In this document: positions 34,581-45,511 of the stretch, piece after piece
How positions within the stretch are numbered: position 1 is the stretch's first letter
Layout of the letters: every line of letters starts with the position of its first letter
DNA from: a phage
Assembly (NCBI GenBank): GCA_028130375.1
Contig: GCA_028130375.1_3658.1
DNA: 64,000 nucleotides
Direction: 5' to 3' (one strand)
Notes under the pieces: generated by a model
The model's input: the letters and a program-made list of their open reading frames with translations, nothing else
What the model was told of the DNA's origin: nothing
Database searches by the model: none
Program-made: the position numbers and the translations under genes

Positions 34581-34586
34581 CACTAG

Positions 34587-34614
34587 GCCCTGCCCGAAAG
34601 GGTGGGGCTTTTTG
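34587..34614 (+). terminator. Rho-independent terminator (gccctgcccgaaagggtggggc + T-run)
   Basis: GC hairpin with gaaa loop then ttttt; identical 22-bp hairpin at 44754-44775. Confidence 0.65.
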
Positions 34615-34631
34615 CATTAGGAGACAGCAAA

Positions 34632-35396
34632 TTGAAATTTATCTACAAAGAACACTACCACAAAGGTGTTGTGTGGAGTCTATTTGACGGGTCTGGTGGT
34701 GCAGTCATTGACTGGGCAAAAGCTGGGTACCTGTGCCTGTGCTTTAATGCAGAAGGCGCTGATCACGGCAGTTATGCAGAGGTGATCACCGATCATCCCA
34801 ACATTCACTATGTGGACTATTGGATTGACCCGTGGTTCCCTCAGGAAACTTTTTGCATGTATCCGGCTCCAGATTTTATTCTTGCATTTCCTCCGTGCAC
34901 GCATTTAGCGGTATCAGGTGCTGCACATTTTAAGAAAAAGCTGGCTAAGGACCCCATGATCCAAATTAATGCTGTAAAGGATGCTCGGGTTGCGGAAGAG
35001 CTGGGAGAGATTTACGATTGCCCGTGGCATGTAGAGAATCCTGTGGGTGTTATGTCCACACTGTGGCGCAAACCTGATTACCGTTTTCACCCTTCGGATT
35101 ATGGCGGGTATTTACCGGAAGATGATGTAAACCCATGGTTTCCTGAATTTATAGCTCCACGTGATGCCTATCCAAAAATAACTTGCGGCTGGATAGGTAA
35201 TGGATTTATAATCCCAGCCACAAAACCTGTCCCGCAAATAGTTGACGCGGTTAGCGGGTATTCCATGCAACACGCCAAGCTGGGTGGAAAGAGTGCAAGA
35301 ACGAAGATGATTCGAAGCCTCACACCACGTGGCTGGGCAAAAGCCGTATTCCTAGCAAACGAGCCTGTAGTAAGGAGCAGAATTAATGGGAAGTAA
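34632..35396 (+). CDS. Divergent C5-cytosine methyltransferase-like protein
   Basis: Start placed at TTG 34632, 7 nt after aggaga; motif I-like LFDGSGGA, PC-motif-like AFPPCTHLAVSG, ENV-like HVENPVG; short and atypical (PCT rather than PCQ). Confidence 0.5.
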   Translation: MKFIYKEHYHKGVVWSLFDGSGGAVIDWAKAGYLCLCFNAEGADHGSYAEVITDHPNIHYVDYWIDPWFPQETFCMYPAPDFILAFPPCTHLAVSGAAHFKKKLAKDPMIQINAVKDARVAEELGEIYDCPWHVENPVGVMSTLWRKPDYRFHPSDYGGYLPEDDVNPWFPEFIAPRDAYPKITCGWIGNGFIIPATKPVPQIVDAVSGYSMQHAKLGGKSARTKMIRSLTPRGWAKAVFLANEPVVRSRINGK

Positions 35397-37464
35397 ATTT
35401 ATGGCATCTGCATACAACCGTTTCGGTGAGCCAAACCCGAAAGCAACTAAGTATAAAAGTGGGGGAAGTGTGAAACGAGACTATCGTGATGAAAAAGAAG
35501 TTGAAACTGTAGAGACTGTTTTAGAAAATACTAAAATTGTCCCTGTCCCACAACAAAATATCGGTCTGATGGCTGCACAATATTTTGGTGTGCGATCAGC
35601 ATTGTCACAAGAAGACGGTGTGACAGTCACTGCAACATATTTCCCATATTACGACCGCTACGGAAATCTGTCCGGTTTCAAAAAGCGTGACTGGACTATT
35701 CCTAAAGAACAAAGGGGCCACTTCTCCGTTGTTGGCATCGTAAAGGCCAACTCCCAGATGTTTGGTCAAAAGCTGTGTGCATCTTCCAACAACCGTAAGC
35801 AGATTAACGTTTGTGAGGGAGAAGGTGATGTTATTGCAGCATGGCAGGCTGCATATCAGATACAAGTAAAAGGGATTCTCACCAACGCTAAAGCCCCGGC
35901 AAAGGTGAAGCAGTGGGCTAAAGAGGTCCAGGACGGGATCGACGCAGTTATCAACGGTGGTGATCTGGCAGGAAAACCCTGCCTGCCTTTTGTTGGAATT
36001 AACTGTGGATGTGCAAACGCAGTAGATACTTTTGCAAACAATGAGAAGTTTATCCGTAGCTATGGAACAGTTGTACTGGCAATGGATAACGATGCAGCTA
36101 ACGAGGTAGAGAAGCAAAAACACGTCATTAAAGGTGTTGAGGCCACGCACAATATCGCAGCATTTTTGATGGCTGATAACGTTTACCACGTAGAATACCC
36201 TGGTGAAGTAAATGACCCTGACGGGGTAAAAGATATCCGTGACATGCTGAAGGCTAAAAAGCTGGAAGATATTGTCAACATGTTCCGGCATCCTGTTAAA
36301 TATGTGCCTGATGCTGTGTCGGATTTAGAAGACTTCTCTATCGAGTCTTTGCGGAAAAAGACTTCCAACGGGGTAGATATCAGCGCAGAGTTCCCAAAAC
36401 TGCAAAAAATGCTAAAAGGCTTGCACAAAGGGACACTCGTAATGCTTACAGGGCCATCAGGGGGCGGTAAAACAACTGTAGCTAAAAAACTGGAACATTG
36501 TATTGCAAGATACCTAATGGACCCGACATGCCCGAAGGCTGATGACTATGAAGAGGATGATCGTCTATGTATGATCCATCTTGAGGAGGACCCAGAGGAA
36601 GCAATTAACTCCTTGTATGCAAACCAGTTAGGGTTTGATGTTAAAGAGTTTGTTGAAGATCCTAGCCAGTTTTTAACTGATCAAGAACACGCAGAGATTC
36701 ACCAATCATGGGCAAAAGCTGGAAAAATCAAAGTGTTCAAACATTTCGGGTCTATTCCGGTGGATGAGTTGATTACCAAGCTTAAGCAAATGGTTTGCCT
36801 GTACCATTGCCGTTATATTGTGCTGGATCACCTGTCCATGGTAATTTCAGGGCTTAATGTTAAGGATGAGCGAAAAGAACTGGACATGGCTATGACTCAG
36901 CTGGCTGCGTTTTGTAAGCAGTTTAACGTGTTTATCTTGGTGATCGCTCACCTCAAACGTACAGAGATTGTGCCTCCTAAGGACAAGGATGGTAACCCGT
37001 TACCTTTCTGGTATCCTGTGCGAAAAGAGAATTTGCGAGGATCGGCGGGGCTTGAACAGTTGAGTTGGGTAGTCATAGGTGTCGAGGCCGAAGAAATGGT
37101 GGATCGTTCTCGTGGACGTGTCCGTCTGGTAGGTCTTAAAAACCGTCCAGCAAAAACTCTAGGTATTGCTGACACTTTGGTTATGGACCCGCACACAGGT
37201 AAGTTCCATGATGCCAGTAATTGGTACTGGGACAAAGAAATGCAAATGTTTACAGACGGAGAAGGTGGGGAGGTTGTTTGGAGACCTCAAGCTATGTTTG
37301 AGGATCAGGAGCATGCAGTTGTAGAAACACCTATGGGCAAGGTTGTGGCTGATAAGGTTGTAACTCCTACTGTTAAGCCTGTTGACACGCAGGAAGACCT
37401 CCAGTACGATGATCCATCCTCTGACCAGGTCCCTGGTTTTGAGGATGATGAAACGCCTTTTTAA
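35386..37464 (+). CDS. Primase-helicase (TOPRIM primase + DnaB-like helicase, T7 gp4-like)
   Basis: 692 aa; TOPRIM CEGEGD and MDNDAAN; Walker A GPSGGGKTT, Walker B-like IVLDH; acidic C-terminus ending DDETPF. Confidence 0.8.
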   Translation: MGSKFMASAYNRFGEPNPKATKYKSGGSVKRDYRDEKEVETVETVLENTKIVPVPQQNIGLMAAQYFGVRSALSQEDGVTVTATYFPYYDRYGNLSGFKKRDWTIPKEQRGHFSVVGIVKANSQMFGQKLCASSNNRKQINVCEGEGDVIAAWQAAYQIQVKGILTNAKAPAKVKQWAKEVQDGIDAVINGGDLAGKPCLPFVGINCGCANAVDTFANNEKFIRSYGTVVLAMDNDAANEVEKQKHVIKGVEATHNIAAFLMADNVYHVEYPGEVNDPDGVKDIRDMLKAKKLEDIVNMFRHPVKYVPDAVSDLEDFSIESLRKKTSNGVDISAEFPKLQKMLKGLHKGTLVMLTGPSGGGKTTVAKKLEHCIARYLMDPTCPKADDYEEDDRLCMIHLEEDPEEAINSLYANQLGFDVKEFVEDPSQFLTDQEHAEIHQSWAKAGKIKVFKHFGSIPVDELITKLKQMVCLYHCRYIVLDHLSMVISGLNVKDERKELDMAMTQLAAFCKQFNVFILVIAHLKRTEIVPPKDKDGNPLPFWYPVRKENLRGSAGLEQLSWVVIGVEAEEMVDRSRGRVRLVGLKNRPAKTLGIADTLVMDPHTGKFHDASNWYWDKEMQMFTDGEGGEVVWRPQAMFEDQEHAVVETPMGKVVADKVVTPTVKPVDTQEDLQYDDPSSDQVPGFEDDETPF

Positions 37465-37522
37465 TGTTTAACAAAGAGTGGGAGGGGTAGTACAACCGCC
37501 TCCCCTTTAAGGAGAACTGTAT

Positions 37523-40300
37523 ATGAGCATGTGGTCGTTCGATTTTGAGTCATCCGGTTTGCTGGAAGACCCAGATCTTTATTATCACTGCGGTCTGTTT
37601 AAAGAGCTGAATAAGAACCGTTTTATGCTGTTCCTTCCTCTAAATGACCGCACACACTACTCCGAGGAGGATATGGAGAAGGCTAAGAACTTTATTCTGG
37701 CAAAGAAAACTCTTTATAAAGATTTTGAAGTTCGCATAGCAGATTTTTCGGAGTTGGAAGGTTGGCTCACAGGCAATTCCGACTGGTCACCAACAGCTTT
37801 GAACTGCCATAACTGCTACAGTTATGACTTTATGCTGATGGAAAGATTATCCGGTATTCATTTTGATATGTTCCGTGATCCTAAATGCATGGGGACTATC
37901 AACGACCACCAGGTTAACCTGTTTGATACGTTGGCGATGAGCCGAATCTTATGGCCTGATCGCCCTTTACCAAAAGGTTGTCCTGACTCCGTATTCAACC
38001 CGGTTACTAAGAAAATGCAGCCTGTTGGTCCTCACGGCCTTATGGCATGGGGCTACGCCCTTGGTAACCAGAAAGTTCAAATTGATGACTGGCGCGATCT
38101 TCCGTTGTGGAAGTATGTGGATCGTGTATTCGAGGACGTTATCATCCAGGAGCTGCTCTGGAAAGAGCTGGTAGCGGAATCAAAAGGTGTATTCTACGGC
38201 AAATCTGACATGCAGAACTTTATGTACGATCCTGCCAAAGAGAAGCCGAAAGGGTTCAAGAAGATCACCTGGAAGAACGCATTGCGCCGGGGTATGCTGC
38301 AACACTTCCTGATGGAGCTGCAGGCCCGTCAGGGTGTGTATTTTGACATAGATGGAGCTATTGCTTTACGTGACCGTTGCGATGCGTGGATGAAAGAAAT
38401 CGCTGATCGTGTTGAACCGCAACTACCTTTAAAAGAGCTGTCAATGTCTCAGCGGCCCAAGTTCCCTGAAAAGCCGTTTAACCAAGATGGGACAATCTCC
38501 AATAATGGTTGGAAATGGTTAAAAGATAAGCTTGGCTATCCTGTAGATATGAGCGCTTTAGAGTTCAAAGCCCCGCCTAAGCGAGCATTTACCTCTACAG
38601 GAGATGTCAGTAAGATGGGGATAAAATGGTGTGAAGAGATGGGCTGCAAAGACCCCGATAAGATGGCTGATTTCTTGAGAGGCTATATTAAGGGCACCTC
38701 CACACCACAACCTTTACCTAAAGAGCTAATGGATCAGGCAATAAGTGATCTACAGCAGAAGCGAATGCCGGACTGCAAGATACCTATGAAAATCAGCAAC
38801 CAGGACGACATTAAGCGATACCTGATCAGTGCTGGTTGGCTTCCAACAATGTGGAGAACTAAGGATGTAACTAAAGACAGCAAGAAGAAAGCTCTACCTG
38901 ATGCAGATGTTGATGCACGAGTATATGCATATATGGACGAGCTTTTAGAGTCAGAGTATTGTGACCTGATTATCAACTTCTGGAACAAAACTGATGCTAA
39001 GTTCCAGACAACCGTGCACAAGTTCCGAAGCTTTCCTAACTCCGAAAGGATTAAAAAGGAAGTATTCGGGAAAATACGTAGAAAAGCTAGGGCACTTATT
39101 ACTTCTCCGCAACTGAAAGATACGTTTGGACACCTATGCCCTAATCTTGAAAAATTGAACGGAGAGATGGCTAAAGATATCGTCTTGTGGTTATCATTGC
39201 GAAACCGCAGATCGGTCCTTGATCCAATCAAGGAGGATAAGGTTGATACTGGTCTTCTTAATCACCCACGTTTGAAGATTGACCATAAGCTTCCTGCTAA
39301 AAGTTCTGGATTAACAAACACTTCCCGACAGAAACACAGTATTTGTGCAAACATGCCTAAACCATCTCCTAAAGTGGTTATGGGTAAAGAGATGCGTAGT
39401 CTGTGGGGTGTTCCTCCAGGATACTTTGAGATCGGTATTGACGGGTCCAACTTAGAGCAGCTTATCGGGGCTTGGGGTGCCTTTGAGTTCGACAACGGCC
39501 TGTATTACGATGTTGTAAGTAACGGGGACGCACACCAAAACAATGCTGAGGCATATACAAAAGTAGCAGGTAGAGAGGTGTCTCGTAACGACGGTAAACC
39601 TATCACGTATGGGGTTATGTATGGGGCACAAAAAGATAAAGTTGCAGATATGCTGGACATCTCTCCAGAGTTGGGACAAAGGGTAATCGATGCACTCTGG
39701 GATGCCAACCCTGGTCTTAAGGGGCGTAAAGAAGATCTGGAGAAATTCTGGGAAGCAACGGGTAAGAAGTTTATCTACTCTTTTGATGGTCATGCTATCT
39801 GGACCCGATCTAAACACTCTTTACTTAATGCATACCAACAAAATGGCGGTGCATCGTTGTGTGATTTAGTTGGGATACTCATGCACCACCAAATGGTGAA
39901 GCGTGGGTGGTACGATGAAGGTGTCCGTCGTATTATTTATTACCATGACGAATATCAGCTTCAAGTCCCTGACACACCGAAGTATAAGACTGTGTACACC
40001 TTCGACACAATTGAAGAACTGGAAGCATTTAAGGCAGAACAGGAGGCCAAACTTCATGTGTTCGACGGTCATAAGTACAAAAAGGCACGCAAAGATGAGG
40101 ACGGAAACGAAGTAGTTGACAGGGACGGAAACACGGTGTACGATCCTATCCTGAACGATGACGGAAAGCTTGAGCTTATCTGGAGCCCTGTGGGTGAAAT
40201 GGTGGTGCATTGCTTCTGGCAAGCTTCTAAAATGATGGGAGTCCCGTTCCAGATCACAGGTGAATACCTGTGTGGTCGTAATTGGGGTGATTGTCACTAA
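37523..40300 (+). CDS. DNA polymerase, family A, with 3'-5' exonuclease domain
   Basis: 925 aa; Exo I FDFESSG; motif A-like IGIDGSNLEQL, motif B-like RNDGKPITYGVMYG, motif C YYHDEYQL. Confidence 0.9.
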   Translation: MSMWSFDFESSGLLEDPDLYYHCGLFKELNKNRFMLFLPLNDRTHYSEEDMEKAKNFILAKKTLYKDFEVRIADFSELEGWLTGNSDWSPTALNCHNCYSYDFMLMERLSGIHFDMFRDPKCMGTINDHQVNLFDTLAMSRILWPDRPLPKGCPDSVFNPVTKKMQPVGPHGLMAWGYALGNQKVQIDDWRDLPLWKYVDRVFEDVIIQELLWKELVAESKGVFYGKSDMQNFMYDPAKEKPKGFKKITWKNALRRGMLQHFLMELQARQGVYFDIDGAIALRDRCDAWMKEIADRVEPQLPLKELSMSQRPKFPEKPFNQDGTISNNGWKWLKDKLGYPVDMSALEFKAPPKRAFTSTGDVSKMGIKWCEEMGCKDPDKMADFLRGYIKGTSTPQPLPKELMDQAISDLQQKRMPDCKIPMKISNQDDIKRYLISAGWLPTMWRTKDVTKDSKKKALPDADVDARVYAYMDELLESEYCDLIINFWNKTDAKFQTTVHKFRSFPNSERIKKEVFGKIRRKARALITSPQLKDTFGHLCPNLEKLNGEMAKDIVLWLSLRNRRSVLDPIKEDKVDTGLLNHPRLKIDHKLPAKSSGLTNTSRQKHSICANMPKPSPKVVMGKEMRSLWGVPPGYFEIGIDGSNLEQLIGAWGAFEFDNGLYYDVVSNGDAHQNNAEAYTKVAGREVSRNDGKPITYGVMYGAQKDKVADMLDISPELGQRVIDALWDANPGLKGRKEDLEKFWEATGKKFIYSFDGHAIWTRSKHSLLNAYQQNGGASLCDLVGILMHHQMVKRGWYDEGVRRIIYYHDEYQLQVPDTPKYKTVYTFDTIEELEAFKAEQEAKLHVFDGHKYKKARKDEDGNEVVDRDGNTVYDPILNDDGKLELIWSPVGEMVVHCFWQASKMMGVPFQITGEYLCGRNWGDCH

Positions 40301-40349
40301 TGTAAACTATCAACACATGGAAGTGTTGTTGAGCAAAGAGGAGACTTTT

Positions 40350-40667
40350 ATGGTAGTAGAACCAACAAAAACATTTACATCCATGACTATCCCTGTTATT
40401 ATGCAGGTGGAGTGTGTTCAGGTATCTCAAGTGTGGCCAGGCACTAAAATCCCAACAGGGCCTGATTTCTTTCAGGTTGGGAAAGTGTACAATGTCTGGA
40501 AGGCACCAGATTGTCACCCTTTCATTAAAGAGAAGGCACCAAATTGCTACCCTTTCATCAAAGATGACCGTGGAATGCTGTGGTATCTTGGAAATGATTT
40601 GACACTGCACCTTGGGAATGCTATTATTGCAGTATTCAGACTTAACAAGAAGGAGACTGATCAATGA
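40350..40667 (+). CDS. Hypothetical small protein
   Basis: ORF trimmed to ATG 40350 after gaggag; contains internal tandem repeat HPFIKEKAPNCYPFIKDD. Confidence 0.35.
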   Translation: MVVEPTKTFTSMTIPVIMQVECVQVSQVWPGTKIPTGPDFFQVGKVYNVWKAPDCHPFIKEKAPNCYPFIKDDRGMLWYLGNDLTLHLGNAIIAVFRLNKKETDQ

Positions 40668-40891
40668 CGACTTTGGTTAAAGCTACCTTTGTAGAAGAAA
40701 AGATGACAGACCTGTCATTCTTTAAAGAAGGAAAGACCTACGAGGTTTATTACGATAAAGCTCGTGCAAACAAGATGATTAAAGACGAGGAAGGGATTGC
40801 CTGGTTTATCTCCCATCTGGCAAACGGTGAGTATCATATCTACGGAACCACCCTGCTTGCCAAGTTTGTAGCTGTTGAAGAGGACCTATGA
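40664..40891 (+). CDS. Hypothetical small protein
   Basis: 75-aa ORF, ATGA overlap. Confidence 0.4.
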   Translation: MTTLVKATFVEEKMTDLSFFKEGKTYEVYYDKARANKMIKDEEGIAWFISHLANGEYHIYGTTLLAKFVAVEEDL

Positions 40892-41082
40892 AAGTAAAGT
40901 ATCTGGCTGAGGGTATGAGTAGGTATTTCACCCTTGGTGAAGAATATTGGCCCTTTACAAGCAACGGCGATGTCTACGTGAAAGATAATTTCGGCACGCC
41001 GTGGTTTCTGCACCCTAATGGGCTGGGATACTCCATTTACTGCGGTGCAGTGAACAACACAACACTTGCAGAGTTTGTATAG
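40888..41082 (+). CDS. Hypothetical small protein
   Basis: 64-aa ORF, ATGA overlap. Confidence 0.4.
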   Translation: MKVKYLAEGMSRYFTLGEEYWPFTSNGDVYVKDNFGTPWFLHPNGLGYSIYCGAVNNTTLAEFV

Positions 41083-41092
41083 AGGAGGTAGA

Positions 41093-41464
41093 ATGTTAGT
41101 AAAAGGTACCCACACAGTCAAACAACGTATTGAAGTTGAGATTGATGACTGCGAGCTGAAGCATATTTTACGGTCATGCTCCAACGTTTTGCTCCTTAGC
41201 ATTCTTCAGGAGCGAGCAGAGAACGAGTTCTTAAATGCACTGGCAGGCCGTCCTGGTGACTTCTGTGTGCGTAAGCGTGGTGACAACAAGTCATGGCTGT
41301 GGGAAATCGATGCCGACTGGGATTACCACAAAAATGAGGGTATAGATGAGCCTATTCGTGAATTGACAGACAAAGAGGTTCAGATGTACAATGAAGTTTG
41401 TCATTGGGCAACACGCCAACAAATTTACCTCGACCCTGTGTGGTTGATTGAAAATAGTCATTGA
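41093..41464 (+). CDS. Hypothetical protein
   Basis: ORF trimmed to ATG 41093 after gaggaggtaga. Confidence 0.45.
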   Translation: MLVKGTHTVKQRIEVEIDDCELKHILRSCSNVLLLSILQERAENEFLNALAGRPGDFCVRKRGDNKSWLWEIDADWDYHKNEGIDEPIRELTDKEVQMYNEVCHWATRQQIYLDPVWLIENSH

Positions 41465-41540
41465 CAAGAAGTAAGATTAGATATAAGATGCTTCACACAA
41501 ACAGAGCGTTGATTGTTTAACACTTAAGGAGACCGCTAAG

Positions 41541-41795
41541 ATGAAAATTACTTTGAAGCCAGAATGCGTTGCAAATGACCGAGCTTTTAAAGATTGCACA
41601 GTCGGTGCAATTTATGAAGCAGAGTTTTGTGAGAACCCTCTGGTAAAAGCCCTTCTGGAAGAAGGGGCCCCTTTATCACAAGAAGAGATCGATGAGCTGG
41701 AAAACTCAGCACAGTGCCTTACCTTTAAAGATGACGAAGGAGACTCTGTCTGGTGCACTGTTAATGAAGTAGTTTTTGTAAAACCTGAACATTAA
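41541..41795 (+). CDS. Small Cys-containing protein, paralog A
   Basis: 84 aa; KPECVANDRAFKDCT...DDEGDSVWCTVNEV parallels the next gene. Confidence 0.45.
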   Translation: MKITLKPECVANDRAFKDCTVGAIYEAEFCENPLVKALLEEGAPLSQEEIDELENSAQCLTFKDDEGDSVWCTVNEVVFVKPEH

Positions 41796-41798
41796 TAC

Positions 41799-41827
41799 TT
41801 GACAACAGTGATGGGGCCTAATATAAT
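41799..41827 (+). promoter_or_regulatory. Consensus sigma70 promoter TTGACA-17-TATAAT
   Basis: TTGACA 41799-41804, 17-bp spacer, TATAAT 41822-41827; about 30 bp before ATG 41859. Confidence 0.6.
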
Positions 41828-41858
41828 GGCCCTATCAAAACGAAAGGGGACCACAGCA

Positions 41859-42119
41859 ATGACCAAACAATATCAACGAATTAAAGCCAAGGTTAAGCCA
41901 GACTATCTGGAGAAGGACTCTGCTTTTCGGGACTGCACAGCCGACAAAGTTTACACAGGGACTGTCCTGTTGAACGATAAACTTGAAGTAGATGTGCTGG
42001 GTAAAGAGGCCGTTATCGAGGATGACAACGGTGACTGTGTTTTCTGCACCACACGGGAGCTAGAAGTCTTAGAATACTTCGGTGAAATCTTCAACTCCTT
42101 AGACGACGAGGAAGCGTGA
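41859..42119 (+). CDS. Small Cys-containing protein, paralog B
   Basis: Start moved to ATG 41859 downstream of the promoter and RBS aaagggga; KPDYLEKDSAFRDCT...DDNGDCVFCTTREL. Confidence 0.45.
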   Translation: MTKQYQRIKAKVKPDYLEKDSAFRDCTADKVYTGTVLLNDKLEVDVLGKEAVIEDDNGDCVFCTTRELEVLEYFGEIFNSLDDEEA

Positions 42120-42508
42120 TGAAAAATATTTGGGATATTGGTATCTTTGAAGCCTCTAAGCTTGACGGTGCTGATGGGGTGATTATGGTGTCTGATGGCA
42201 AGGCAACACTAACTTCAGGAGATATCATCTATGCCTTGGACGAGCTGGCGCTTCTGAAATCTACCGGTAACACTTTAGAGGAGCGTCTTCAAGGCTTCGC
42301 CTTCAAAGAAGGCACAAATACCGCCATGATGTGCACCACACGGACAGTCCAGGTTGGTAACGGTGTCTATATGATCATTGCTGTGTGTCCTAAATTCAGC
42401 AACGTCAACAAAGATGATGCTGACGCTGTCAACGATGTGGTTGTTCTCTTCGTGGGTGACGCTATGGCAGACCTGATGAATGCAGGAGAAGCGGCAAATG
42501 AAGACTGA
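42116..42508 (+). CDS. Hypothetical protein
   Basis: 130-aa ORF. Confidence 0.45.
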   Translation: MMKNIWDIGIFEASKLDGADGVIMVSDGKATLTSGDIIYALDELALLKSTGNTLEERLQGFAFKEGTNTAMMCTTRTVQVGNGVYMIIAVCPKFSNVNKDDADAVNDVVVLFVGDAMADLMNAGEAANED

Positions 42509-42800
42509 AAACATTACCCCAGCAGGGTTCTTAAAAGTATACCGTGAACTGCTATATACTACAGAGGACAGTGTTCTAGAGTATCCAGAATATCTTTTGC
42601 TGTATAAGTATCTACAGGAAGCTGGTGAAAATCTGCCAGTTAGTGCAGAAGGCGGTCCGAACTGGGTATACAGCGCATGGAGAAAGGTTGACATTCTCCC
42701 AGATCCAGGTAAAGATATGGTAGTTTGGCAGCTTATCAACAACATCGGGATTCCAATCTTTGATGAAGCTGTTAAAATCTATTTTGAACTTAACGATTAA
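42498..42800 (+). CDS. Hypothetical protein
   Basis: ORF trimmed to ATG 42498. Confidence 0.4.
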   Translation: MKTENITPAGFLKVYRELLYTTEDSVLEYPEYLLLYKYLQEAGENLPVSAEGGPNWVYSAWRKVDILPDPGKDMVVWQLINNIGIPIFDEAVKIYFELND

Positions 42801-42817
42801 TATCAGGAGACCTTAAG

Positions 42818-43063
42818 ATGACTGAAGTAGTTGCTCGCGCAGGACAGAAAGTACGTTGTGTTGAAGTAGGTTTTGGTGGCAAAGGGTGTCAAAACTTGAC
42901 TCAAGGTAAGGAATACGCTGTTATTTCTGGTGGTGGCGACGAAAGTATCGTGTTCGAGGGTCACATCCTGGATGCTGAAAACTTTGAAATCTTTGACGAC
43001 GATGGGGATCCGATCACCTGCCTGCTGGACGGGAATTGGGGAACTTTTGAAGTGATTGGCTAA
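42818..43063 (+). CDS. Hypothetical small protein
   Basis: 81 aa, RBS aggagacc. Confidence 0.45.
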   Translation: MTEVVARAGQKVRCVEVGFGGKGCQNLTQGKEYAVISGGGDESIVFEGHILDAENFEIFDDDGDPITCLLDGNWGTFEVIG

Positions 43064-43146
43064 CAAATATCTATTGTAATTTGCAGAAGGGGATGCTAAA
43101 ATAGTGTCTCCTTCTATGTTGTTCAAATAAAATCGGAGATTCCATA

Positions 43147-43512
43147 ATGGAACAAATGAACGATCAAACGTCGGTTGCAATGAACGAGCAAGAACAACCT
43201 CAAGAATTTTTCTTAGGGTTAAGTAAAGATCAAGTGTCTCTTTTGCTAGTGCTTTCTTCTTTCATGGGAAGACTTCAGGAGCTCACACAACAACCGGAGG
43301 CTGAACAATTATTTCAGGCTCTGCGCGAAGAAGAAAAATATCGTCGTTTGGACTATGCCTTAGGTTGGGTAGCTCAACAACGAGATATGCTGATGGCTCT
43401 CTCTGGGACCACAAGTTTTGCAATGGGCCTGTTGGCTCAAGTTCAGGACAAATTAATTCAGGCAGGGTTTGCACACACGGCAAACACTAACGAAGAACAA
43501 GGAGACAAATAA
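43147..43512 (+). CDS. Hypothetical protein
   Basis: 121-aa ORF directly upstream of SSB. Confidence 0.45.
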   Translation: MEQMNDQTSVAMNEQEQPQEFFLGLSKDQVSLLLVLSSFMGRLQELTQQPEAEQLFQALREEEKYRRLDYALGWVAQQRDMLMALSGTTSFAMGLLAQVQDKLIQAGFAHTANTNEEQGDK

Positions 43513-44738
43513 TGAGCGTTATTCAACAATTCGCTAACCCGATGAATCCGCGTGAAACTGTTTTACTGGCTCACGGCATGATTAAACGTGTCAGCATCAA
43601 GCCTATCAAAGGTGCTGATCCTACAACAGGTATTAAAACCACTGTGTGGCAAGGTAAGAAAATTGAATCCAGCCACACCATCTCTTTACTGATTTCTGAA
43701 CTGGATTCCTCTGATAACCTGCTTCAAGGTGGTGAAGAAGTTTGGATCAGTATGGGTGATAAGCTGCTTAAACCTGGTCATCAAGACTCTGTCTCTGTTA
43801 AAATTGATGACAAGTGGGAAACCGTAACGCCGGGATGGATCGTAAATATCCCTTTGAAGGCAAACGAGCATAACGGTAAGACCTATTACAAAGGCTCACT
43901 AGCTAAGATGGTCAAGCTGGGTGCAGGAGAGGCTCCAGCAGCGACCCAGCAGCAAAAACAGCAACAAGGTGCACAATCACAAGGCCAGAAGCAGAAACCT
44001 CAGCAGAATGCCAATCAGGACGTTTTACGCATCTATGGCGATGTGACTCAGATTGTTGGCAACGTGGTTACTGTTAATGACCACAAGATTGGCGAAGGTG
44101 CCATGGTTGTCACTGATGAGCAGCTTAAAGACCTGGTGGTAGGTGGTCGTGTTGCAGCCATTGTTGACAAAGACACCGGAAACATTATCAGTGGTTTCAA
44201 AGCCTATCCACCTAAGGCAGAGAACGGCACCCAAGGCTCTGGTGGCAAGCGTAAATCCTCTTACGACCCTATTGGTGTGGAGACGGGACATAGCATCAAT
44301 GCGTTGCAAATCATCCTAGATCGCGGGTTTAAGGTGGACGACCCACTAAGCGTGGCTAAAACACTGCACGTAGTCACCGTTGAGCTTAAGAAAGAGTATG
44401 CTCAAGCCACCAACCGAACTGAGGATGAAGTAGGTGCCAGTGTCGGTAATGCGGTGTTGAACGCTTGTCGCCGTATTGACAAGAAAACGAAAGTTGATGA
44501 TTTTGCAGCGGCAATTACTGCAGAAGCAAAAGATGTCTTGACTAATCTGGCTGAGCCGTTGTACGATTGGATCAAGAACGGTGCTGGGTCAACTGACCAT
44601 CAAGAACCTCAGGCTGCCAAACAGGAAGCAGCTCCACAGCAAAACACTGTAGACGCTCCTCCTGTAAATGATGAGGAAGATGACCCAATGGATCAGAATC
44701 CAGCACAGTACGCCTTTGATGATGACATCCCTTTTTAA
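43512..44738 (+). CDS. ssb: Single-stranded DNA-binding protein
   Basis: 408 aa; Gln/Gly-rich linker and acidic C-terminus ending DDDIPF, as in E. coli SSB; located in the replication module. Confidence 0.6.
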   Translation: MSVIQQFANPMNPRETVLLAHGMIKRVSIKPIKGADPTTGIKTTVWQGKKIESSHTISLLISELDSSDNLLQGGEEVWISMGDKLLKPGHQDSVSVKIDDKWETVTPGWIVNIPLKANEHNGKTYYKGSLAKMVKLGAGEAPAATQQQKQQQGAQSQGQKQKPQQNANQDVLRIYGDVTQIVGNVVTVNDHKIGEGAMVVTDEQLKDLVVGGRVAAIVDKDTGNIISGFKAYPPKAENGTQGSGGKRKSSYDPIGVETGHSINALQIILDRGFKVDDPLSVAKTLHVVTVELKKEYAQATNRTEDEVGASVGNAVLNACRRIDKKTKVDDFAAAITAEAKDVLTNLAEPLYDWIKNGAGSTDHQEPQAAKQEAAPQQNTVDAPPVNDEEDDPMDQNPAQYAFDDDIPF

Positions 44739-44753
44739 CAATTAGTTAACATA

Positions 44754-44782
44754 GCCCTGCCCGAAAGGGTGGGGCATTTTTG
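44754..44782 (+). terminator. Rho-independent terminator (identical hairpin to 34587-34608)
   Basis: gccctgcccgaaagggtggggc followed by attttt. Confidence 0.65.
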
Positions 44783-44800
44783 TATAATGAGATCTGAAAA

Positions 44801-45217
44801 ATGACATTAGAAGATATCATTGTTAAACCTGAGAACTATGACCAATACAATCTGTCAACTCAATCTGTAGACCTCGGATGCGCCACAGTCAGTGCATGGC
44901 TGGTTAACGGAAAAGAGCTGGATAAATGCTTAGAAGCTCACATGTCTATTAACAAGTTTCTGGATGAAAATACTCACTGGCTTGAAGGTGCAGGCGTATA
45001 TGCTTCATGGTTGGAGAGTATGGGATTCGACTACCAATCTGAAGAGGGGTGGTGGAGCTATTTAGCTATCTGCCCAGAGACGCTGCAATGCTTCATGAAA
45101 TATTCTGAAGATTTGGAGTACCGGGCGGTGGTTGATAGTGCTATTGCCCGTTATAGCCGTAAACCTTTTTCCCACGACATTAAAACTGTGGAAGAATTTG
45201 TTGAAGTTTTCTGTTGA
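44801..45217 (+). CDS. Hypothetical protein
   Basis: 138-aa ORF. Confidence 0.45.
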   Translation: MTLEDIIVKPENYDQYNLSTQSVDLGCATVSAWLVNGKELDKCLEAHMSINKFLDENTHWLEGAGVYASWLESMGFDYQSEEGWWSYLAICPETLQCFMKYSEDLEYRAVVDSAIARYSRKPFSHDIKTVEEFVEVFC

Positions 45218-45313
45218 CACAAGTTGAAAGGTGTGCAATTATAACTTCATAGAACGGGAGGACGTGATGAACGAAGAAAACTGGGATGTATAACTAACAG
45301 GAGGCCACTGCCC

Positions 45314-45511
45314 ATGATTTATCGAATCCGTGTAAGAGAAGATGCACCAGGCTGTTACTTTGACTGGCGTGGGTGGTGGTTTCTCCACCCGATGGATGGA
45401 CTCACAGATAGAATGCTGGATGCTGCCCTTTATACAGATACCGACATAGAATATAATCTCTATCTGAAGGACGGTATAGATAACGGTCTATTTGAAGCAA
45501 TTCCTGTGTAA
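45314..45511 (+). CDS. Hypothetical small protein
   Basis: 65 aa, RBS aggagg. Confidence 0.4.
   Translation: MIYRIRVREDAPGCYFDWRGWWFLHPMDGLTDRMLDAALYTDTDIEYNLYLKDGIDNGLFEAIPV

What the first reader, a model, noticed from the sequence alone, without database searches (positions are those of the whole stretch)
37440..44738. Matching acidic C-terminal tails ending in Phe on primase-helicase and SSB
The primase-helicase ends in DDETPF and the SSB ends in DDDIPF. In T7, acidic C-terminal tails ending in Phe on gp4 and gp2.5 bind the same basic patch on the DNA polymerase. The same convention here suggests a T7-style replisome built around the family A polymerase.
Basis: partly seen in the sequence, partly recalled or inferred. 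Interest (0 to 1): 0.45.

Follow-up and report, generated by a model that had tools for sequence, protein, structure and literature searches.

The report
Shared SSB-type tails on phage replisome proteins
In this rV5-like E. coli phage, the replicative primase-helicase and a previously unannotated probable DNA-binding protein both end in the acidic "...PF" peptide that bacterial SSB uses to dock its partners, a real and conserved but only moderately surprising variant of a known replisome trick.

Summary
The 692-aa primase-helicase ends in FEDDETPF and the 408-aa protein ends in FDDDIPF. These are the only two [DE]3-x-PF matches in all six frames of the window, and both sit directly before a stop codon. 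The tips are conserved: 55/56 homologues of the 408-aa protein and 114/120 primase-helicase homologues end in PF.

The T7 reading is only partly supported. The polymerase and the helicase are T7 gp5/gp4-like by sequence, and the logic of matching tails is T7-like. However, the tip is not the T7 type (DxDF). It is the bacterial SSB-Ct motif, identical to the last 7 residues of E. coli SSB. The "SSB" belongs to a family of unknown function (phrog_4477). It has a predicted OB fold and shows no sequence relation to T7 gp2.5. T7's polymerase basic patch is mostly missing, and the helicase lacks the zinc finger.

The most likely function is a shared docking peptide for replisome partners: the phage polymerase, and possibly host SSB-binding proteins.

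One result was unexpected. About a quarter of sequenced rV5-like phages, and many mobile-element SSBs, carry a conserved 14-16-aa "cap" (APIGLQY...) after the PF. The cap is often linked to a homing endonuclease. I found no description of it in the literature.

The parts
35386..37464 (+). Primase-helicase gene (692 aa). It has a T7 gp4-like SF4 helicase domain and a TOPRIM-like EGEGD...DNDAAN region. It has no N-terminal Cys4 zinc finger.
   Evidence: phrog_239, E 7e-160; Pfam DnaB_C and AAA_25. Best PDB match is T7 gp4, E 4e-16. The first Cys is near residue 131, whereas T7 gp4A has CDNC...CYVC.
37438..37461 (+). Primase-helicase tip F-E-D-D-E-T-P-F (residues 685-692), followed by the stop at 37462-37464.
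   Evidence: 114/120 homologues, down to 42% identity, end in an acidic stretch followed by x-P-F. Position -2 is E/T/S/C.
37523..40300 (+). Family A DNA polymerase (925 aa). It is T7 gp5-like in the palm and fingers and is intact in this window. K748 and K749 are the only remnant of T7's front basic patch.
   Evidence: phrog_8888 and phrog_17. Pfam DNA_pol_A scores 31.8 bits, below the 34.3 cutoff. The only PDB hits are T7 gp5. Loop alignment.
43512..44738 (+). SSB-like protein (408 aa, phrog_4477, 'unknown function').
- OB-like beta domain: residues 1-138 (43512-43925).
- Gln-rich disordered linker: residues 140-169.
- Small beta domain: residues 171-232 (44022-44207).
- Four-helix bundle: residues 253-355 (44268-44576).
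- Disordered acidic tail: residues 359-408 (44586-44735).
44715..44735 (+). SSB-like protein tip F-D-D-D-I-P-F (residues 402-408). It is identical to the last 7 residues of E. coli SSB (the SSB-Ct motif). The stop is at 44736-44738.
   Evidence: The DDDIPF hexapeptide is defined as SSB-Ct in PMC5872125. hhalign matches only the tail. 55/56 homologues end in PF, and position -2 is I/V/L.
34585..34610 (+). Terminator-like hairpin (GCCCTGCCCGAAAGGGTGGGGC followed by a T run) upstream of the replication block.
   Evidence: Its core 22-nt stem-loop, GCCCTGCCCGAAAGGGTGGGGC, recurs at 44754-44775.
44754..44775 (+). The same terminator-like hairpin, 16 nt after the stop of the SSB-like gene. It closes the block holding the methyltransferase, primase-helicase, PolA, about ten small ORFs of unknown function (the last a 121-aa ORF) and the SSB-like gene.

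Best explanation
The two tails are copies of one short linear docking motif. The motif is the bacterial SSB C-terminal tip: an acidic run followed by x-P-F-COOH, placed at the end of a disordered linker.

One copy sits on the probable phage ssDNA-binding protein. The other sits on each of the presumably six subunits of the gp4-like helicase.

I infer that both tails compete for the same pocket or pockets on replisome partners. A pocket of this kind would combine a hydrophobic hole for the Phe with basic residues for the carboxylate and the Asp/Glu run. By analogy with T7, the most likely partner is the phage's own T7-like family A polymerase. On that model the helicase would tether polymerases at the fork, and the DNA-bound SSB-like protein would hand template over to them.

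The SSB-like tip is letter-for-letter the host tip and is far more constrained than the helicase tip. It probably also engages host proteins that read SSB-Ct.

Shown here:
- the motifs, their uniqueness in the genome, and their conservation;
- their identity to host SSB-Ct;
- the T7-type ancestry of the polymerase and helicase;
- the predicted OB fold and the disordered tail.

Inferred, not shown:
- ssDNA binding by the 408-aa protein;
- any physical tail-partner contact;
- the identity of the partner.
For: - The motifs occur only at these two C-termini, 2 observed against about 0.01 expected.
- The tips are conserved across families that otherwise diverge to 28-42% identity.
- The last 7-12 residues are identical to E. 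coli SSB, and hhalign matches the tail only. SSB-Ct is an established partner-docking peptide (PMC5872125; Phe ring in a pocket and carboxylate on a basic residue).
- The polymerase and helicase are closest to T7 gp5 and gp4.
- T7 precedent for tails on both gp4 and gp2.5 binding the polymerase.
- Phage precedent for an SSB tip recruiting a phage-encoded partner: HK620 SSB and Sak4 (PMC5928155).
- The tail is predicted to be disordered and the N-terminal domain is OB-like with SSB top hits.
- Both genes lie in one block bracketed by hairpins sharing the same 22-nt core.
- The same optional cap is found behind the PF of both protein families, so evolution treats the two tips as one kind of module.
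Against: - No binding data exist, and no complex could be modelled.
- T7's front basic patch is largely absent: the loop is 6 aa shorter and only K748, and partly K749, is conserved. A thioredoxin-binding-domain equivalent could not be aligned.
- Position -2 differs systematically between the two families (I/V/L versus E/T/S/C), so they may have different preferred partners.
- phi92-like relatives keep DDDIPF on the SSB-like protein, but their helicase ends in ...GSY. The two tails are therefore not obligatorily matched.
- About 30% of matching Vequintavirus records, including the culturable BASEL phage DrSchubert, encode the SSB-like protein with 15 extra residues after the Phe. Canonical SSB-Ct pockets, which need the free carboxylate, should not tolerate this.
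Confidence: 0.5

Rival explanations
1. Host mimicry is the main function. On this view the SSB-like protein's DDDIPF tip exists to engage, recruit or titrate host proteins of the SSB interactome, such as the chi subunit, PriA, DnaG, RecQ, ExoI and RNase HI. This would either borrow those proteins for phage DNA or starve host replication and repair. The helicase tail would be a separate, phage-internal feature that merely resembles it. This view overlaps with the best explanation rather than excluding it.
For: - The tip is identical to the last 7 residues of E. coli SSB, and to the last 12 (EPPMDFDDDIPF) in phi92-like homologues.
- Tip entropy is much lower in the SSB-like family than in the helicase family, although the protein bodies diverge as much. 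This is as expected if a conserved host pocket sets the constraint.
- hhalign finds only the tail in common with E. coli SSB.
- The T7-type polymerase patch is not conserved.
Against: - The phage encodes its own polymerase, primase-helicase, Dda-like helicase, RNase H, ligase and exonucleases, so its need for host partners is unclear.
- The capped alleles hide the carboxylate that host pockets read, yet those phages are viable.
- All sampled hosts have the same SSB-Ct, so host-tracking could not be tested.
Confidence: 0.3
2. The tails act mainly in cis as DNA mimics. On this view the acidic tail folds back onto the protein's own DNA-binding surface (the OB cleft, or the helicase surface) to tune ssDNA affinity and specificity, and no shared external partner is required.
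For: This behaviour is documented for T7 gp2.5 and proposed for Enc34 ORF6 and E. coli SSB. The tail is long, acidic and disordered.
Against: An electrostatic DNA mimic does not need an invariant terminal Pro-Phe. That signature is typical of pocket binding. AF2 shows no fold-back of the tail (pLDDT 30-42), although this is weak evidence. In the known systems, cis and trans roles coexist.
Confidence: 0.12
3. The resemblance has no function. On this view it arises by chance, or from gene conversion spread by the homing endonuclease that inserts at the ...CCT TTT TAA ends of both genes.
For: The same HNH endonuclease-linked cap is found behind both genes in different phages. The two tip-coding DNAs are similar (GAT GAT GAA ACG CCT TTT TAA versus GAT GAT GAC ATC CCT TTT TAA).
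Against: - Chance expectation is about 0.01.
- The PF ends are kept in 114/120 and 55/56 homologues, most of them without any endonuclease nearby.
- The family-specific residue at position -2 argues against ongoing homogenisation between the two genes.
Confidence: 0.03

Closest known systems
Bacteriophage T7 replisome: acidic Phe-terminated tails of gp4 helicase-primase and gp2.5 SSB binding gp5 polymerase
   Same: Both systems combine a family A polymerase with a gp4-like SF4 helicase (nearest PDB relatives). In both, the helicase and the SSB-type protein end in an acidic, disordered tail with a C-terminal Phe. The genes are adjacent in a replication block.
   Different: - The tip chemistry is D-D-x-x-P-F, the bacterial SSB-Ct type, not D-x-D-F.
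- The SSB-like protein is unrelated in sequence to gp2.5 and has extra domains.
- T7's front basic patch is mostly absent.
- The polymerase is 925 aa against 704 aa, and no thioredoxin-binding domain can be aligned.
- The helicase lacks the zinc-binding domain.
- The host phage is a 137-kb myovirus, not a 40-kb podovirus.
Bacterial SSB C-terminal tip (SSB-Ct, DDDIPF) and its interactome
   Same: The 408-aa protein ends in the exact hexapeptide. It also has the preceding Phe, a disordered low-complexity linker and an OB-fold DNA-binding candidate domain.
   Different: - There is no PF00436 SSB domain, and only the tail aligns.
- The architecture has three folded domains.
- The motif also appears, in a polar variant (DDETPF), on a replicative helicase. 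I could not find this described for bacterial or phage DnaB-type helicases other than the T7 tail analogy.
Phage HK620 SSB tail (NDYPPF) recruiting the phage annealase Sak4
   Same: A phage SSB uses an SSB-Ct-like ...PF tip whose last six residues are needed to load a phage-encoded partner (PMC5928155).
   Different: HK620 SSB is a distant homologue of bacterial SSB, and its partner is a recombinase. Here the body of the protein is a different family, and a second replisome protein carries the motif.
T7-type phage SSBs with DUF2815 (Enc34 ORF6; PDB 4KLK, 4JG2)
   Same: [quoted passage not shown] They appear among the weak Foldseek hits (PMC5686142).
   Different: The matches are not significant (E 0.008 to 0.2). 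There is no sequence-profile relation to gp2.5, and these proteins have no helical domain.

Membership tests
T7-type replisome (gp5 / gp4 / gp2.5) | Family A DNA polymerase related to T7 gp5 | tested here: met
   The only PDB sequence hits are T7 gp5, E 7e-16, over residues 633-813. PHROG DNA polymerase families match. Pfam DNA_pol_A scores 31.8 bits, just below the 34.3 cutoff.
T7-type replisome (gp5 / gp4 / gp2.5) | gp4-like hexameric SF4 helicase fused to a TOPRIM primase | tested here: met
   Best PDB hits are T7 gp4 (E 4e-16), then Twinkle. phrog_239 E 7e-160; DnaB_C. The TOPRIM-like EGEGD and DNDAAN motifs are seen only in sub-threshold HMMER stretches.
T7-type replisome (gp5 / gp4 / gp2.5) | N-terminal Cys4 zinc-binding domain of the primase (template recognition) | tested here: not met
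   There is no Cys in the first ~130 residues of the window protein. T7 gp4A has CDNC...CYVC.
T7-type replisome (gp5 / gp4 / gp2.5) | gp2.5-type SSB (DUF2815-like OB fold) | tested here: not met
T7-type replisome (gp5 / gp4 / gp2.5) | Acidic C-terminal tails ending in an aromatic residue on both the helicase and the SSB | tested here: met
   The tails are FEDDETPF and FDDDIPF, and both are conserved in the families. T7 has NDTDF and EDGDF.
T7-type replisome (gp5 / gp4 / gp2.5) | Front basic patch on the polymerase (T7 K587, K589, R590, R591) that receives the tails | tested here: inconclusive
   The aligned loop is 6 residues shorter: W-E-A-T-G-K-K-F against W-V-A-G-E-Q-Q-V-K-W-K-R-R-W. K748 is conserved across the family and K749 is K/R/Q. 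Other patches cannot be located without a model of the complex.
T7-type replisome (gp5 / gp4 / gp2.5) | Thioredoxin-binding insertion in the thumb, with host thioredoxin as processivity factor | not testable with these tools
   The region between the exonuclease and palm domains (about residues 200-620) does not align with T7.
T7-type replisome (gp5 / gp4 / gp2.5) | Physical binding of the tails to the polymerase | not testable with these tools
   This needs peptide pull-down, ITC or multimer modelling. The structure tool takes single native chains only.
Bacterial-type SSB with SSB-Ct | C-terminal hexapeptide D-D-D-I-P-F at the very end of the chain | tested here: met
   The 408-aa protein ends FDDDIPF, which equals the E. 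coli MG1655 SSB end (PMC5872125). The primase-helicase has the variant DDETPF.
Bacterial-type SSB with SSB-Ct | Disordered low-complexity linker before the tip | tested here: met
   pLDDT is below 50 for residues 359-404.
Bacterial-type SSB with SSB-Ct | N-terminal SSB OB domain (Pfam PF00436) homologous to E. coli SSB | tested here: not met
Bacterial-type SSB with SSB-Ct | ssDNA binding, and binding of the tip to host partner proteins | not testable with these tools
   This requires biochemistry.

The most novel reading that the evidence does not exclude
The acidic-PF tip may be a portable docking module shared by mobile-element SSBs and gp4-like helicases, existing in two conserved states. 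The open state is ...DDxxPF-COOH.

The cap is kept at the protein level despite synonymous codon changes. It occurs on three unrelated protein bodies: phrog_4477 proteins, classical SSBs and primase-helicases. One subtype of the cap travels with an HNH homing endonuclease that inserts exactly at the PF-stop junction.

If the cap is a functional mask, a pro-peptide or a partner switch for SSB-Ct, it would be an undescribed layer of control over the SSB interactome. It could, for example, hide the tip from host partners or from defence systems that sense phage SSBs.
Probability: 0.2. Interest if true: 0.7.

Novelty: new variant of a known kind. Interest (0 to 1): 0.42.

Why it matters
This work gives a testable handle on how the replisome is assembled in a large and therapeutically popular group of coliphages, the Vequintavirinae (rV5-like phages). 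Their replication proteins are mostly annotated as 'hypothetical'.

It assigns a probable SSB role to phrog_4477. It also shows that the SSB-Ct convention, which is already a drug target in bacteria, has been adopted by a replicative helicase family.

Nature has supplied matched experimental material. Capped and uncapped alleles exist in otherwise near-identical, culturable phages, for example BASEL Bas50 DrSchubert against naam-like phages. These pairs can test whether a free terminal Phe is needed.

If the tip binds host SSB partners, it is also a route by which the phage could interfere with host replication and repair.

Tried and rejected
1. Group I intron at the endonuclease insertion, which could splice back to ...IPF-stop. 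Rfam at gathering threshold finds none there. The same search does find a genuine group I intron in the PolA gene of phage JLBYU08.
2. Cap as mere read-through into the endonuclease gene. Rejected, because the cap also occurs without any endonuclease (L012, L014, L019 and most classical SSBs), and because its codons differ at synonymous sites while the amino acids stay the same.
3. Cap folding back on the protein. The AF2 model of the capped allele gives pLDDT around 30 for residues 359-423, so there is no docking.
4. A conserved neighbour gene as the cap's partner. Clustering ORFs around 43 capped SSB genes shows only ordinary recombination and methylase neighbours, none of them universal.
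5. Literature. No paper in the searchable library contains APIGLQY-type strings. Searches on rV5 and Vequintavirinae SSB returned no title or abstract about this protein; the papers were not opened.
6. Sequence homology of the 408-aa family to T7 gp2.5: none.
7. Fold search for the helical domain. There is no significant PDB match. The BFVD viral library returns only uncharacterised homologues.
8. Modelling a polymerase-tail complex was not possible. 
9. The small ORFs between PolA and the SSB-like gene (nine scanned), as a possible processivity factor or thioredoxin. All belong to PHROGs of unknown function.
10. Host-tracking of the tip. This is uninformative, because all hosts sampled share DDDIPF (from my own knowledge; only E. 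coli was checked here).


Full report
**What the window is.** The region is 97-99% identical in DNA to rV5-like E. coli myoviruses (Vequintavirus: ECO111 5-P, naam, slur16, the rV5_ev phages, and the BASEL phage DrSchubert). The finding spans a replication block:
- a Dcm-like methyltransferase (34602-35396);
- a primase-helicase (35386-37464, 692 aa);
- a family A DNA polymerase (37523-40300, 925 aa);
- nine small ORFs that all fall in PHROGs of unknown function;
- a 121-aa ORF;
- a 408-aa ORF (43512-44738).

Terminator-like hairpins sharing the same 22-nt core stem-loop sit at 34585-34610 and 44754-44775, on either side of the block.

The primase-helicase ends ...VPGFEDDETPF and the 408-aa protein ends ...QYAFDDDIPF. 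The pattern [DE]3-x-P-F occurs only twice in the six-frame translation of the window, and both times it is immediately followed by a stop. Shuffled sequence gives 0.01 such events on average, and 0 of 200 shuffles give two. I also scanned the remaining ~74 kb of the 98%-identical phage naam genome. No other ORF has an acidic ...PF end. The only other acidic end with a terminal aromatic residue is the RNR beta subunit (...EEEIWEF).

**Conservation.** Among 56 database homologues of the 408-aa protein (down to 31% identity), 55 end in PF once an optional extension is set aside. The exception is a truncated fragment. Pro407 and Phe408 are invariant in a 19-sequence alignment whose other columns average 46% identity. 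Among 120 primase-helicase homologues (down to 42% identity, including Vibrio, Cronobacter and Enterobacter phages), 114 end in PF preceded by acidic residues, for example DNDTPF, DSDSPF and DIDEPF. More distant gp4-like helicases in phi92-like contigs lack PF but still end in Tyr (...EGSY...VEEY). The two tails are similar but not the same. Position -2 is always I/V/L in the SSB-like family and E/T/S/C in the helicase family. Positions -3 to -7 are much less variable in the SSB-like family.

**What the proteins are.** The polymerase's only sequence matches in the PDB are T7 gp5 (E 7e-16, palm and fingers). The helicase's best matches are T7 gp4 (E 4e-16), then Twinkle.

The 408-aa protein has no Pfam hit and belongs to phrog_4477, 'unknown function'. 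Most GenBank records call it hypothetical, and a few call it, or its phi92-like relatives, a putative SSB.

An AlphaFold2 model (mean pLDDT 74.6) shows five parts:
- a beta domain, residues 1-138;
- a disordered Gln-rich linker;
- a small beta domain, residues 171-232, which is absent from the short phi92-like homologues;
- a very confident four-helix bundle, residues 253-355, which carries most of the invariant residues;
- a disordered tail, residues 359-408.

DDDIPF is the canonical SSB-Ct hexapeptide of bacterial SSB (PMC5872125). E. coli MG1655 SSB ends ...NEPPMDFDDDIPF. The phage protein therefore shares its last seven residues with the host SSB, and the phi92-like homologues share the last twelve (EPPMDFDDDIPF). 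hhalign of the family profile against E. coli SSB aligns exactly these 15 tail residues (probability 94%) and nothing else. By contrast, T7's tails end EDGDF (gp2.5) and NDTDF (gp4). The 'convention' here is the bacterial one. A polar variant of it (DDETPF) has been placed on the helicase.

**How well the T7 mechanism transfers.** In T7 the tails contact basic patches on gp5, including the front patch K587, K589, R590 and R591 (PMC12339929). The six helicase tails contact three patches, and removing the gp4 tail reduces processivity threefold (PMC8472574). In the alignment, T7's WVAGEQQVKWKRRW corresponds to WEAT------GKKF here. The loop is six residues shorter. Only K748 is conserved across the family, and K749 is K/R/Q. 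The thumb and thioredoxin-binding region does not align at all. The primase-helicase also lacks the Cys4 zinc finger of gp4A. The T7 analogy therefore holds at the level of logic and ancestry, but not at the level of the known contact residues.

**Most likely mechanism.** I commit to the following, at about 0.5 confidence. Both tails are instances of one docking peptide that binds a pocket, or pockets, through the terminal Phe, its carboxylate and the acidic run. The phage polymerase is the most probable common partner, so the hexameric helicase and the DNA-coating protein take turns holding polymerases.

The near-invariance of the SSB-like tip, and its identity with the host tip, suggest that it additionally reads, or is read by, host SSB-Ct-binding proteins. 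I rate this rival, which overlaps with the first view, at about 0.3. A purely cis, DNA-mimic role is possible but does not explain an invariant Pro-Phe. A phage SSB tip that recruits a phage-encoded partner has precedent in HK620 SSB and Sak4 (PMC5928155). Every binding step here is inference.

**An unexpected complication: a cap after the Phe.** In DrSchubert and in many database homologues the SSB-like protein does not stop after IPF. It continues ...DDIPF-APVGLQYGKSRIHAL. In DrSchubert a 638-bp insert carrying an HNH-type homing endonuclease sits exactly between ...CCT TT and TTT TAG. Rfam finds no group I intron at that position. In a search with the DrSchubert junction, 108 phage records matched and 32 held at least 80% of it, i.e. 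the endonuclease plus the cap.

Two primase-helicase homologues, and three IMG/VR contigs, carry the same extension after their own ...DTPF, again with an HNH gene downstream.

The cap is not simple read-through, for two reasons. First, it also occurs with no endonuclease nearby (L012, L014, L019). Second, its codons vary at synonymous sites while A-P-[VI]-G-L-Q-Y-G stays constant.

A pattern scan of IMG/VR for PFAP[IVM]GLQY found 48 loci. About 30 of them are classical bacterial-type SSBs (28-74% identical to E. coli SSB), mostly on 40-56 kb phage contigs. They end, for example...EPPMDFDDDIPF-APIGLQYPALLNCM, mostly without an endonuclease. The same scan over 185,579 species genomes found only 12 hits, 9 of which are SSB tails, seen in Vibrio (a plasmid and a MAG), Providencia, Pseudoalteromonas, Oceanisphaera, Glaciecola and a Parasphingorhabdus MAG.

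- ...GLQYG[KR]xx[IL][HY]x[LI], which is endonuclease-linked;
- ...GLQY[PR]xxLxx[MI].

AF2 predicts the capped tail to be disordered. No paper in the searchable library contains the motif.

The cap matters for the finding in two ways. It shows that evolution treats the helicase tip and the SSB tip as the same kind of module. It also shows that a free C-terminal Phe on the SSB-like protein is absent in many viable phages, unless the cap is removed after translation. The window itself carries the uncapped form of both genes.

**Verdict.** It is imprecise in detail: the tips are bacterial SSB-Ct tips, the 'SSB' is a new OB-fold family, and the T7 contact patch is not conserved.

I file it as a new variant of a known kind, of moderate interest. 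The cap is a more novel side lead that deserves its own follow-up.

Noticed in passing
L002 (DrSchubert) 44697-45334, corresponding to the window junction 44735/44736. One cap subtype is linked to an HNH homing endonuclease inserted exactly at the PF-stop junction. Of the 108 phage records that matched the DrSchubert junction query, 32 carry at least 80% of it. The window has the uncapped alleles. The cap's function is unknown, and no literature match was found.
   Followed up: partly
L001 7552-7840 (JLBYU08), corresponding to about window 39940-39950 inside the PolA gene.: Several relatives (L001, L004, L005, L006, L014) have the polymerase gene split after ...IIYYH. In JLBYU08 the gap is a bona fide group I intron (RF00028, 72.5 bits). 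Other relatives have much longer PolA ORFs (1104-1253 aa), which may contain inteins. The window's PolA gene is uninterrupted.
   Followed up: partly
Homologues P0062-P0064 and P0103-P0151 of window 35386-37464.: Many primase-helicase homologues are about 975-1025 aa long instead of about 670-690 aa. Query coverage shows that a large insertion accounts for the difference, possibly an intein or an endonuclease. I did not examine it.
   Followed up: no
Window 34585-34610 and 44754-44775.: Two terminator-like hairpins sharing the core stem-loop GCCCTGCCCGAAAGGGTGGGGC, each followed by a T run, bracket the replication block. A repeated regulatory cassette of this kind may mark transcription units across the genome.
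   Followed up: no
Window 35386-35780 (N-terminus of the primase-helicase).: There is no Cys4 zinc-binding domain ahead of the TOPRIM-like region, unlike T7 gp4A. It is therefore unclear whether this protein primes, and how it would recognise priming sites.
   Followed up: partly
Window 44268-44576 (residues 253-355 of the SSB-like protein).: This four-helix bundle is the most conserved and most confidently modelled part of the protein (motifs GVETGHxIN and VGASVGNAVLNACRR). It is shared with the short phi92-like 'SSB' homologues and has no significant match in the PDB. Its role is unknown.
   Followed up: partly
Window 41541-41795 and 41826-42119; also 40383-40667.: The first two adjacent small ORFs cross-hit each other's PHROGs (12544 and 11936), so they are probably tandem paralogues. 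The third ORF hits its PHROG in two stretches, which points to an internal repeat (...CHPFIKEKAPNCYPFIKDD).
   Followed up: no
P0040 compared with P0009 and P0041 (homologues of window 43512-44738).: P0040 has the N-terminal OB domain of one lineage (P0041-like), while most of the remainder, including the C-terminal tail, matches another (P0009-like). This indicates domain-level recombination within the SSB-like family.
   Followed up: no
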